A DNA stretch of 64,000 nucleotides from Macrostomum lignano (Eukaryota), in the NCBI GenBank assembly GCA_002269645.1, contig NIVC01002467.1:107454-171453 (forward strand), in the 5' to 3' direction. The translations under genes and the position numbers were made by a program. Positions within the stretch are counted from its first letter, which is position 1, and the number at the start of each line of letters is the position of its first letter. The notes beneath the pieces were generated by a model. It was not told the DNA's origin. It made no database searches and saw only the letters and a list, made by a program, of their open reading frames with translations. Positions 59,201 to 62,200 of the stretch are shown here, piece by piece.

Positions 59201-62200
59201 GGGTACCGCGGGCCACGGTCCGAGGAGATGACGCTCTGGCAAGAGGGGAGCAGGAGTAGAATCTGGAGTCAGGGACAGTGTGTCGCAGGTTTGAGTACGT
59301 TGCTTTGCAGATGGATTTGTACGCTGTCCTCCAAGTCGGACACACAGCCGAACGTGCCGAGATCAGGCGAGTCTATCGACAGCTAGCGCTCTTCTGGCAC
59401 CCGGACAAGCACCCGGACAAGGAACTCGCAGGACGCCGTTTCCAAGAAATTGAGACTGCTGGTAGAATTCTATCGTGTCCATATCGCCGAGCGATGTACG
59501 ACCAGTTGGGCGATAAATCAATCCCGTATGACGAGGCTGTAACCTTCGCAATGACGTTCATACCTCCTACTGGTGTAAGAATGCCGGCGGACATCGAAGA
59601 GGGAGTACAGCAAAGGCGAGAAGTTGAAGAAGCTCAGCGCAAGGAAGCTGGTCTCAGGCAGGGGAGACAGGGACAGAGGAACGATTACGAAGCGGATGGC
59701 TACATTCTAATCTCGGACGACGATGAGAGCGAGGAGTCGGATGAGTGTAGCATCGACACAGAAGAAGAAGACGAGTTGCTGGCATCGGATGGCTCCTCCG
59801 GAAGTAGTGAGTCAGAAGCTATGGAGATCGATGTACCGGAAAGCAAGGAGGTTGTCTCACATCGCGCGTCGGGAGCAATATGGGATGATGAAAAGCTGTC
59901 GTTATCGGCAGCTGCGCGTCAGCTCCGCCATCGTTTGATGAAGCATATTTTGGCTGGACAGTCGGACGGAATCGTGTCAGTGCTCACGGCTATGAGACGG
60001 CTGTTTCGAGACTCGCAGCGAGAACCGAGGAGCGCACTGTCAATGGTCCTGCTGCAGGCGTTGTTCTTCATCCGCAGAGATATCGCTCCGGTAAAGCGTC
60101 AGAGAGCAGGCCGCCGTTACTGGTCTAGGCAGAGTTTTGATTGTTTCGTCCGACAGCTCTGTCACGAGCTCATCCCGCTGTTCGGTTTGCGCCGGCCCGG
60201 CAGGCTGCTCGAGGTCCTGAAAAGCTGCGTCGGTCTCCCTGGACTTCGGGTTCGCTGGGTGCCCAGTTCCGATTCATACTGTATTTTCTGCTTACTTGTA
60301 TGTATGTTGTTACGCTCGTACTGTATGGGTTTATTTGCATGCTAGTGGGGTCAAGCTTCCTGGGGAATGGCTCAGCGCTGTGCGGCGGCCACGTGCGCTT
60401 CCTGCCGGCTTCTGCGGCGGCCACCTGCGCTTCCTGCCGGCTTCTGCGGCGGCCACCTGCGCTTCCTGCCGGCTTCTGCGGCGGCCACGTGCGCTTCCCG
60501 CCCGGCTCTGCGCGCCTCGCCCGGCCGCCTTCGCGTCTTGCCGGCCACCTGCGTGCCCTGTCGGCCATCTGCGCGTCCTGTCGCACCTGCGTGCCCTGTC
60601 GGCCATCTGCGCGTCCTGTCGGCAACCTGCGCTTCCTGCGGCCATCTGCGCGTCCTGTCGGCAACCTGCGTGCCCTGTCGGCCATCTGCGCGTCCTGTCG
60701 GCAACCTGCGCTTCCTGCCCGGCCATCTGCGCGTCCTGTCGGCAACCTGCGCGTCCCGCCCGGCCATCTGCTCGTCCTGCCGGCCGCCTGCGATGGTTTT
60801 CTGTGCCGCCAGCTTTGAAAGCCTATTCCGTGCCCCGTGGTTGCTCCTGACGAACTCGCGTGCAGAATACTAGTACCTTTTTCATATTTCTCTTGCGGCA
60901 ACCTTTTTTTTGCTTTTCCCTGTTGCATTAGTTTGTTCCAATTTTTTTGTTGTTTTTGATTTTTTTTGCTTTGTTATTTAAAAAATTTGGAATCCCAGTC
61001 GCCGTGGTTCGAGCTCCGCCCTGTTTTTTTGTAGGAGGGGAGGGTGTAGTGCATGCGCCCTTGTCAGTTGGCAGGGCGCGTTGCACTTTGGGGCTGGTTG
61101 GGGGGGTTGGCGGGCGTGGCAGGGTCTGGCCCCGGCCGGGCTTTGCGCGTGCCCCTCCCCAGCCGTGCCCCTGCCCCGTGCTCAGGGCTGGTTGGCTGCG
61201 GCCGGGCCAGCTTTGGCGCGGGTGCAGCCCCTCCCCCCTTAGGCGGGGTTTTGATTGGCTGGGCCGGCGTGGTTTGTTTTGGTGAGCTTAGCCGGTGGGG
61301 CCGTCTGCCCCAGGGTTTGGGTGCTATTTATGGTGCGACTCTGGCTCTTGCCCGCCTCCTGCGTGCTTTTTGTGTTTTGGTGTGCTCCGAGAGTGCAAGC
61401 GCGAGACCTGATAAAAGAAACAGCAACATTAGCTACTTCGATAAAAGAAACAGCAACATTAGCTACTTGGATAAAAGAAACACAATAGCCTAATTGAGAA
61501 GAGTCTTGGAGAATTAAGAAGAAGTCGGAAACTGCGCTTGAGACCTGCGAATAATAAACGGTGAACAGTCATCTGGCCACTGGTAAGCCGCCTGCTGTTT
61601 GAGTCCTTTCTTTCCGGGAAGCTTGCTAGGCCGTATTCTTGCCAGAGCGTCATAACGCCGGGAGACCATATAGCTTCTGTAGTACGGTACCGTTTACCAT
61701 ATATATTGCGTACGCCCTACGGTATAGAGAATAGAAGCACTCGAGAGTGTCACCACACCTCGAGCCGCAGCGTGAACTCTGAGTGTCACAACACCAGAGG
61801 GATCGAATTATTATCGCAGAGCGTCGCCACGCCTGCTCGTCGTATTCATAAAAGTACAGACAGAGCGTCACAACACCTGTTATATCACATATAATATATA
61901 TTGTACTCGGGACTGGGTACCCAAGCCGACCCGGGTTACAACACCACCATACCCTCTCCTCCTTTCCCCTCCATACCCTCCTTAAATTTTCAACCCATTT
62001 TTTATCTCTACTCTAATTCACTAACAACTTAATAAACATTTTAAGTTTCCTGTTTACTTTATTTATTTAACAAACTAAATTACTATATAGTATAGATAGG
62101 ATGTACATGCAATTTCAGGGCCTAGCAACCGCATGCGAGAAGCTGAGGCTGCAAGCGCCGACTCCCCCAGCGCGCAGCAGTTTTCTCTATACGAATTTCT

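What the first reader, a model, noticed from the sequence alone, without database searches (positions are those of the whole stretch)
59311..60345. Ty3/gypsy retrotransposon encoding its own Hsp40 J-domain protein at the env position
Seen: between the integrase stop (58887) and the PPT lies an intact, intronless, sense 344-aa ORF. Residues 1-67 are a full J-domain with HPD (59398-59406). It sits inside the LTR pair and TSD, so it moves with the element. Established: J-domains recruit and stimulate Hsp70. Viruses exploit them (polyomavirus T antigen; pestivirus capture of DNAJC14/Jiv; hepadnavirus RT needs Hsp40/Hsc70), and Hsp70/Hsp90 chaperones load Argonaute/PIWI proteins. Inference: a captured, retained co-chaperone that assists particle or RT folding, or interferes with small-RNA silencing. 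I know of no described gypsy lineage carrying a J-domain ORF but cannot search.
Basis: partly seen in the sequence, partly recalled or inferred. Interest (0 to 1): 0.92.

Follow-up and report, generated by a model that had tools for sequence, protein, structure and literature searches.

The report
Flatworm retrotransposons carrying Hsp70 co-chaperone gene
A whole lineage of gypsy-type jumping genes in a flatworm carries, where retroviruses keep their envelope gene, a long-conserved gene for a J-domain (Hsp70 co-chaperone) protein whose extra parts hint that it points the host's chaperone at silenced chromatin, a cargo I could not find described.

Summary
The ORF has a full J-domain with HPD and lies inside a young, LTR- and TSD-bounded Ty3/gypsy element. 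The shared protein is 315 aa; 344 aa is a minority C-terminal variant (4 of 22 copies).

Related ORF3s follow the integrase in at least six divergent families of this genome (Macrostomum lignano by database label). Of 112 integrase hits, 96 have one just downstream, and the integrases sampled from these families form one clade. ORF3 is under purifying selection (dN/dS 0.16-0.27 in five subfamily comparisons). Five more full-length or near-full-length relatives exist in unnamed public contigs.

Layout: J-domain, acidic linker, and an unclassified five-helix domain. Of 15 linkers, 11 carry a SUMO-interacting-like motif; one family has an HP1-type chromodomain instead; one branch adds a TatD-like domain, and one family there lost HPD.

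Best guess (0.45): a nuclear adaptor that brings Hsp70 to SUMO- or H3K9me-marked silencing complexes. Rivals are Rev-like RNA export and particle or RT chaperoning. Function, splicing and expression are not shown. Seven paper searches found no precedent; Repbase and GyDB were not searchable. This scan had not noted it elsewhere.

The parts
51797..51800 (.). Target-site duplication, left copy (CCAC), at the end of a 25-bp minisatellite in a host intron
51801..52699 (+). 5' LTR, 899 bp, TG..CA; no canonical heat-shock element; candidate splice donors at 52038 and 52339
52703..52720 (+). Primer-binding site (tRNA-Lys type; the tRNA assignment is recalled, not tested)
52945..53865 (+). gag, 306 aa: Retrotrans_gag/PNMA-like (below cut-off) plus one CCHC knuckle
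53907..54983 (.). 30-bp minisatellite, 36 units, between gag and protease
54984..57425 (+). pol, protease-RT-RNase H, split over two frames in this copy; RT-RH closest to Ty3 among solved structures
57394..58887 (+). Integrase frame (H2C2, rve, p58_C), in a different frame from RT-RH in this copy; no chromodomain on it
59298..59310 (+). Pyrimidine-rich stretch ending in AG directly before the ORF3 start codon: candidate splice acceptor of a subgenomic mRNA (inferred)
   Evidence: no spliced joint seen
59311..60345 (+). ORF3, 344 aa in this copy; conserved part is residues 1-315 (59311-60255)
59314..59502 (+). J-domain, residues 2-64, HPD at 59398-59406, with the lineage-typical L(S/G/L)CP(F/Y)RR helix
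59671..59880 (+). Acidic, predicted disordered linker (24 D/E, 3 K/R in residues 121-190)
59701..59724 (+). SUMO-interacting-like motif, residues 131-138 (YILISDDD)
   Evidence: weak support
59881..60255 (+). Basic five-helix C-terminal domain (25 K/R, 10 D/E) with an Arg-rich loop at residues 262-269; no family or clear fold match
60381..60792 (.). Degenerate GC-rich tandem repeats in the 3' untranslated part
61033..61044 (+). Polypurine tract
61045..61943 (+). 3' LTR, 896/899 identical to the 5' LTR
61944..61947 (.). Target-site duplication, right copy (CCAC)

Best explanation
ORF3 is an accessory gene captured once by an ancestor of this gypsy lineage and kept under selection. SHOWN: position, copies, selection and domain content. 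INFERRED: it is read from a spliced subgenomic RNA, as env is, and makes a soluble, probably nuclear protein. A targeting part docks it on host silencing chromatin: a SIM-like motif for SUMO-modified complexes in most families, an HP1-type chromodomain in family I. The J-domain then recruits and stimulates host Hsp70 there, and the basic helical domain holds nucleic acid or a client. Hsp70 remodels or strips the repressive complex, so the element's LTRs stay transcribed. In short, an element-encoded counter-silencing co-chaperone adaptor. That ORF3 is a selected element gene I put at about 0.93; this particular mechanism at about 0.45.
For: Lineage-wide: 96 of 112 integrase hits have an ORF3-type hit within 2.5 kb downstream on the same strand, 3 of them TatD-like part only. 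The integrases sampled from these families form one group, SH-aLRT 98. dN/dS is 0.16-0.27 in five subfamily comparisons, upper bounds 0.26-0.43. HPD is kept in 17 of 20 rows. The SIM-like pattern is in 11 of 15 linkers (shuffle P 0.009-0.076 each) and in 1 of 87 unrelated J proteins. It is 64% identical across six pairs against 40% for the rest of the linker. Family I and P0007 lack it and instead carry a chromodomain (PF00385, E 1.4e-12 and 7e-13) whose nearest structures are Swi6/HP1. Predicted complex of host SUMO with residues 118-160: weak support, score 0.46 against best control 0.17, contacts 78% in agreement, partner pLDDT 50-52. At 0.60 or under the mark was reached by 5 of 78 solved complexes and by all 4 mismatches that passed; solved SUMO-SIM complexes exist (recalled), so the pass may come from memory. 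Between A and A2, integrase dS is 0.16 but ORF3 dS is 1.12-1.15: the cassette appears to have been exchanged between lineages, which fits a host-facing protein better than one co-adapted to its own integrase. Precedent for the logic: J-domain proteins act with chromatin readers in plant silencing (SILENZIO with HSP70; PMC8616336, passages) and associate with the activating SUVH1 reader (PMC11694752, passages). SUMO-dependent SetDB1 recruitment carries out piRNA silencing in flies (10.1101/533091, abstract).
Against: No function, localisation or expression was measured. The SIM pattern was written after seeing the sequences; a stricter recalled ELM-type pattern does not hit the window's linker. 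It is absent from K and T as well. Family T keeps 571-aa open frames in at least 8 places yet lacks HPD, so Hsp70 stimulation is not needed everywhere. One branch (L046) shows no ORF3, and 16 of 112 integrase hits have none listed. The chromodomain keeps only two of three aromatic cage positions in L033 and P0007 (cage positions recalled). Plant J proteins mostly silence, so the direction of the effect is open. dS is near saturation (1.1-2.0) in four of the five comparisons, so the ratios are rough.
Confidence: 0.45

Rival explanations
1. Rev/CERV-like factor: ORF3 binds the unspliced genomic RNA through its Arg-rich helical domain and uses Hsp70 to remodel the RNP, so that it leaves the nucleus or escapes small-RNA surveillance.
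For: AG directly before the start codon in 7 of 11 loci read (window, L028, L032, L033, L034, L037 at its second ATG, L039), and a few bases upstream in L031, L036, L042, L043; background is 8 of 104 ATGs. Splicing implies a need to export unspliced RNA. The C-domain is basic with a conserved (G)R(G)RRxW loop. Cer1 of C. elegans makes such a factor from a spliced mRNA (PMC10309623, abstract).
Against: Does not by itself explain an HP1-type chromodomain or a SIM-like motif. No likeness to CERV was tested. No spliced joint was seen.
Confidence: 0.2
2. Private chaperone for the element's own proteins: the J-domain brings Hsp70 to Gag or Pol for folding, particle assembly, uncoating or nuclear entry; the chromodomain would then steer integration.
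For: HPD is kept in 17 of 20 rows. Viral J-domains (polyomavirus T antigen) and the Hsp40/Hsc70 need of hepadnavirus RT are recalled, not checked here. Chromodomains on integrases of other gypsy clades are described (PMC13524379, passages).
Against: ORF3 is 5-7 times more diverged at silent sites than the integrase between A and A2, so it appears to have moved between lineages. HPD is lost in a young, intact family. ORF3 is not fused to Gag or Pol in the intact families read. The acidic SIM-like linker has no obvious role here.
Confidence: 0.2
3. Self-limiting or competitor-limiting factor: the same nuclear adaptor promotes silencing, as SILENZIO does, or acts as a dominant-negative sink for Hsp70 or SUMO. 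This would cap copy number or suppress rival elements.
For: Same anatomy as the best explanation. The plant J proteins in the papers seen mostly repress (PMC8616336, passages; listings). The HPD-less and TatD-like versions with missing metal-site residues look like decoys.
Against: Carrier families are young and multi-copy. A purely repressive cargo should be lost quickly (inference).
Confidence: 0.12
4. Neutral hitch-hiker: a retroposed host DNAJ fragment carried along without function.
For: Many subfamily copies read here are broken (A2, B2, G2, I2, T2). Within family A there are 7 amino-acid-changing, 5 silent and 1 stop change, which is uninformative.
Against: dN/dS is far below 1. Open frames persist across families at about 30% identity. 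The C-domain folds confidently and has no host paralogue in the genome search.
Confidence: 0.03

Closest known systems
Non-env ORF3s of bdelloid rotifer LTR retrotransposons (DEDDy exonuclease, GDSL esterase; PMC5408684, abstract and section 3.3)
   Same: Invertebrate LTR elements with a captured, family-specific, non-envelope third ORF; modules can be combined in one ORF3.
   Different: There the cargo is an enzyme. Here it is a J-domain co-chaperone with an unclassified helical domain, plus or minus chromodomain, SIM-like motif and TatD-like fold.
CERV of C. elegans Cer1 (PMC10309623, abstract)
   Same: Accessory protein of an animal Ty3/gypsy element, made from a spliced mRNA and working in the nucleus.
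   Different: No J-domain is mentioned for CERV in the abstract. Its RNA-export role is shown by experiment; nothing is shown for ORF3.
Plant chromatin J-domain proteins: SILENZIO with MBD5/6 and HSP70; SDJ1/DNAJ1-SDJ3 with SUVH1 (PMC8616336, PMC11694752, passages)
   Same: A J-domain protein brought to marked chromatin by a reader module. This is what ORF3 may work like.
   Different: Host-encoded, reader and J-domain on separate chains, DNA-methylation readers; no homology beyond the J-domain was tested.
Viral J-domains (polyomavirus T antigen; pestivirus-captured DNAJC14/Jiv) (recalled, not read)
   Same: A genetic parasite encodes its own Hsp70 recruiter next to a client-binding part.
   Different: DNA or RNA viruses, not LTR retrotransposons; no likeness of the C-domain to viral proteins was found.
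Chromoviruses and chromodomain-bearing errantiviruses (PMC13524379, passages)
   Same: Gypsy elements carrying a chromodomain.
   Different: There it sits at the integrase C-terminus. Here it is inside ORF3, between J-domain and C-domain, in one family only.
Heat-induced M. lignano LTR families (PMC12801592; parts 1-3 of 6 read, term search of whole text, supplements 1, 2, 5 searched)
   Same: Same host; LTR elements tied to the chaperone or heat-shock system.
   Different: Those use heat-shock elements in the LTR. This LTR has none, the induced Gmr1/Osvaldo family has a 338-bp LTR against 899 here, and the main text never mentions DnaJ, Hsp40 or extra ORFs.

Membership tests
Ty3/gypsy LTR retrotransposon | Paired LTRs TG..CA with target-site duplication, PBS and PPT | tested here: met
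Ty3/gypsy LTR retrotransposon | Order gag-PR-RT-RH-IN | tested here: met
Ty3/gypsy LTR retrotransposon | RT closer to Ty3 than to retroviral or caulimoviral RT | tested here: met
   Ty3 E 1e-90; next 3e-59; retroviral 6e-34 or weaker
Gmr1/Osvaldo, Mag, CsRN1 or Mdg3 clade | RT groups with GyDB reference elements | not testable with these tools
   No GyDB set at hand. A tRNA-Lys-type PBS and long LTRs would fit Osvaldo (recalled). Nearest named outside integrase is from Exaiptasia, 50%.
Errantivirus (env-bearing gypsy) | ORF3 is an envelope fusion glycoprotein | tested here: not met
   ORF3 is a J-domain plus soluble helical domain; no env family
Chromovirus | Chromodomain at the integrase C-terminus | tested here: not met
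   No chromodomain on the window's integrase; in family I it is in ORF3
J-domain protein (Hsp40 co-chaperone) | J-domain fold with HPD between helices II and III | tested here: met
   (rmsd 1.0-1.3 A to several solved J-domains over 62-70 columns)
J-domain protein (Hsp40 co-chaperone) | Stimulates Hsp70 ATPase in an HPD-dependent way | not testable with these tools
   needs a bench assay
Class A/B J-domain proteins (DnaJ, DNAJA, DNAJB) | G/F-rich region, zinc finger or beta-sandwich client domain after the J-domain | tested here: not met
   Acidic linker and all-helical C-domain; no DnaJ_C or CXXCXGXG hit. By default class C.
DnaJ-X family (PF14308; Djp1/Caj1-like, names recalled) | C-terminal X domain | tested here: inconclusive
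   Language-model look-alike at 0.77 and 0.75, lead only; 0 of 13 C-domains hit PF14308 at E up to 5
TatD DNase (families T, T2, T3 only) | TatD-type barrel | tested here: met
   PF01026 over cut-off in L045 (28.8 bits), below it in L042/L043; Atlas 0.93, 30 of 30 hits TatD
TatD DNase (families T, T2, T3 only) | Metal-binding His/Glu/Asp set intact | tested here: inconclusive
   Weak alignment (E 0.17) keeps the Glu but has Arg for a conserved His; other His/Asp positions look replaced by eye (positions recalled). Probably inactive.

The most novel reading that the evidence does not exclude
An animal retrotransposon lineage has built a modular counter-silencing protein: a J-domain that calls host Hsp70 to heterochromatin, aimed by swappable readers (SUMO-binding motif or HP1-type chromodomain), with a helical domain of a new family and in one branch a dead TatD barrel. 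It would be the first element-encoded co-chaperone, and would make the link between Hsp70, SUMO and transposon silencing testable in a transgenic, regenerating flatworm.
Probability: 0.35. Interest if true: 0.92.

Novelty: new variant of a known kind. Interest (0 to 1): 0.8.

Why it matters
Animal LTR retrotransposons rarely have identified accessory or anti-defence proteins. Here a whole lineage keeps a co-chaperone gene under selection and varies its targeting module. If it acts on silencing chromatin, it shows a transposon turning the Hsp70 system against SUMO/H3K9 silencing, and it gives a ready probe for that pathway in flatworm stem cells and germ line. Even if the mechanism differs, it adds a new ORF3 class and a new, confidently folded helical domain. 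It also warns that several 'J domain-containing protein' gene models of this species are element fusions (P0005, P0012, P0159).

Tried and rejected
Donor of the J-domain: a tree of 16 element, 20 host and 45 unnamed J-domains (75 columns; one host row dropped) left most forks open. Element rows needed 2 changes, and formed one group in 46% of bootstraps. The one-clade test did not finish. No donor can be named; host labels in that tree are my recalled guesses.

Fold of the C-domain: no Foldseek match with E under 0.001 in PDB or BFVD. Best VIA Z was 8.0 over 79 residues to B12-binding cap-type bundles, within the range common for helical bundles. This shows neither a new nor a known fold. The DnaJ-X lead was not confirmed.

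Heat-shock link: no canonical HSE, nor one with a single mismatch, in the LTR or spacer. LTR-start and ORF3-start motifs of our families were not found in supplement 5 of PMC12801592, which may be held only in part.

Expression and splicing: no RNA holder is on record. Four guessed-RNA runs, contigs only, cover pol through ORF3 without an LTR-to-ORF3 joint; this is no evidence either way. One GT..AG skip inside the LTR had only 21 letters on its short side.

Context outside this genome: viral contigs gave 0 of 19 candidates; metagenome scans gave 0 of 146 and 80 loci with generic J-domains only, none with the C-domain, RT or integrase. The word-based protein search missed all full-length relatives. 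The hosts and neighbours of P0007-P0011 and P0155 stay unknown.

The integrase control of 0.65 was an artefact of reading across frame breaks; the DNA-level value is 0.21-0.22.

Papers not held: Harris 2018, Cappucci 2019, Ichino 2021; nothing is cited from them directly.

Full report
1. Observation. The ORF at 59311-60345 (+) is open for 344 codons. Residues 2-64 match the whole Pfam DnaJ model (E 6.4e-18), with HPD at 59398-59406, and the predicted structure overlays solved J-domains. It lies between the integrase stop (58887) and a purine tract (61033-61044), inside LTRs that are 896/899 identical, with a 4-bp TSD and a PBS. Domain order is gag-PR-RT-RH-IN and the RT is nearest Ty3 among solved structures. 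The insertion is recent and sits in sense orientation in an intron of a host helicase gene. This copy's pol is split over frames near 55.2-55.3 kb and 57.4 kb; several sister places have unbroken frames over 1,400 codons. The host is Macrostomum lignano by the database label of an exact host protein from this genome.

2. Copies. The genome search gave 26 places at 89-100% identity (merged). Of 22 full-length loci, 13 read 315 aa, 4 read 344, 3 read 496-566 and 2 break early. The conserved protein is therefore residues 1-315. These are places, not insertions: the assembly is described as redundant (PMC12801592, part 1), and of 4 loci with a visible 3' flank, 3 differ and 2 share one.

3. A lineage, not one family. 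Divergent J-ORFs follow the integrase in families G (L031, 293 aa), B (L032, 327 aa), I (L033, 328 aa), K (L036, 283 aa) and T (L042/L043, over 500 aa), at 23-36% identity. Of 95 ORF3 hits, 68 lie 0.4-1.0 kb downstream of a listed integrase hit; the 27 others include 6 host-type J genes and places whose integrase was not among the 113 scored. Turned round, 96 of 112 integrase places have an ORF3-type hit downstream, 3 of them TatD-like part only; 16 have none. ORF3 lies between two listed LTR hits in 13 of 27 places of family I and 15 of 22 of family G; these are lower bounds, since only 40 LTR hits were scored each. Eight integrases from this genome, including L046 (no ORF3 seen) and the interrupted L044, group with one metagenome protein (P0160) at SH-aLRT 98, apart from 25 other outside relatives. 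A profile search of 1.84 billion representatives found full-length or near-full-length relatives only as M. lignano gene models and five unnamed contig proteins (P0007-P0011; P0155 is a longer cluster mate of P0011). At 44-57% identity to their nearest family (P0007 much closer, to family I), several probably come from other hosts, which I could not establish.

4. Selection. Nei-Gojobori dN/dS for ORF3: A/A2 0.18 (95% 0.12-0.27), B/L034 0.24 (0.12-0.43), B/B2 0.19 and 0.16, I/I2 0.26 (0.16-0.36), G/G2 0.27 (0.15-0.38). J-domain and C-domain are both constrained. dS is near saturation in all but B/L034, and many partner copies are now broken, so these values reflect past selection. Within family A the 13 changes are uninformative. 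Between A and A2 the integrase has dS 0.16 but ORF3 1.12-1.15, best read as exchange of the ORF3 cassette between lineages.

5. Anatomy. After the J-domain come a short helical extension, an acidic disordered linker and a basic C-domain. The C-domain folds with pLDDT 90.6 into five helices. It has no Pfam family (0 of 13 members over cut-off), no clear structural match and no host paralogue among 73 genome hits, all of which I read as element ORF3 places or fragments. HPD is present in 17 of 20 rows. A hydrophobic-acidic SIM-like motif occurs in 11 of 15 linkers, at different positions, against 1 of 87 unrelated J proteins; the pattern was set after seeing the data. It is better conserved than the rest of the linker (27/42 against 224/562 identical). 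Family I and P0007 lack it and carry a chromodomain nearest Swi6/HP1. The T branch appends a TatD-like domain that looks inactive; family T itself has lost HPD yet keeps 571-codon frames in at least 8 places. In 7 of 11 loci an AG stands directly before the start codon, against 8 of 104 ATGs in the element, as expected for an env-like spliced mRNA. No such joint was seen in contigs of four runs.

6. Mechanism. Shown: a retained, modular, soluble J-domain protein. Established knowledge (recalled): J-domains deliver clients to Hsp70 through HPD; HP1-type chromodomains read H3K9 methylation; SIMs bind SUMO. From papers: SUMO-dependent SetDB1 recruitment executes piRNA silencing in flies (10.1101/533091, abstract). 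Plant J-domain proteins work with chromatin readers and HSP70 (PMC8616336, PMC11694752, passages). Inferred: ORF3 docks on silencing chromatin and uses Hsp70 to take the repressive complex apart (0.45). A predicted complex of the host's SUMO with residues 118-160 gave weak support only: 0.46 against best control 0.17, no interface given, and such passes are more often wrong than right unless likely beforehand. Rivals are Rev/CERV-like RNA export (0.2), a private chaperone for Gag/Pol (0.2), a repressive or decoy role (0.12) and neutral cargo (0.03). Against the best reading stand the HPD-less family, the branch without ORF3, the partly lost chromodomain cage and the absence of any expression data.

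7. What is known. Extra non-env ORFs in LTR elements are a known kind (PMC5408684, abstract and section 3.3; PMC10309623, abstract). I found no J-domain or TatD case in seven searches: (listings; hits were unrelated or checked as below). Term searches found no DnaJ in the main texts of PMC12801592, PMC8775202, PMC13524379, PMC6431247 and PMC5730564. In the supplements of PMC12801592, DnaJ appears only in Pfam or homologue labels of transcript clusters. Repbase, Dfam, GyDB, subscription journals, bioRxiv supplements and the 2020 classification of M. lignano LTR elements were not seen and could hold a note of it. This scan's earlier notes hold nothing on this sequence or genome.

8. Verdict. Real, selected and lineage-wide; a new variant of a known kind (accessory ORF3), with an untested but specific mechanism. 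Interest 0.8.

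Noticed in passing
window 49988-50254, 51141-51337, 62098-62400, 62680-63060, 63772-64000 (+): Exons of a host DExD/H helicase gene (ResIII/DEAD and Helicase_C hits) with motifs that look RIG-I- or Dicer-like (recalled). The element sits in sense orientation in one of its introns, so it may disturb an RNA-sensing gene.
   Followed up: partly
L042:1735-3261, L043:1734-3299, L045:1471-2016, L040, L147, L148: A branch of the lineage carries a TatD-like domain at the end of ORF3, apparently without its metal-binding set; some copies keep only this part. 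No paper holds TatD with LTR retrotransposon and gypsy.
   Followed up: partly
L033:3339-3497 (family I ORF3); P0007; L039: HP1/Swi6-type chromodomain inside ORF3 rather than on the integrase; L039 keeps three aromatic cage positions, L033 two.
   Followed up: partly
L028/L029 against window 57541-60255: Integrase 93% but ORF3 73-77% identical in DNA: likely recombination between element lineages near the spacer.
   Followed up: partly
window 53907-54983: A 36-unit, 30-bp minisatellite lies between the gag stop and the protease; how pol is translated across it was not worked out.
   Followed up: no
window 61596-61735 (and the same stretch of the 5' LTR): One contig of run X4 skips 138 bases with GT..AG ends: a possible intron in the LTR transcript, weakly supported.
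   Followed up: no
L044:1113-2765: An endonuclease-like ORF, probably from a LINE, interrupts an element related to family I just after its integrase core.
   Followed up: no
L066 (G000:C575:335560-336040) and G000 C3488 (two inverted places), C1744, C1901: A divergent J-domain opens frames of about 1,400 codons in several places; not matched to the element lineage, identity unknown.
   Followed up: no
L151 (G000:C2596) and C1551, C1565, C2589: An intronless SUMO gene with seven equal-scoring places, six of them as inverted pairs on three contigs.
   Followed up: no
L149:765 onward: A second gypsy gag frame starts inside or just behind the 3' LTR of a family T copy: tandem or nested insertion.
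   Followed up: no
window 1-50000: Dense minisatellite arrays (units of 20-33 bp, tens of copies each) fill much of the window.
   Followed up: no
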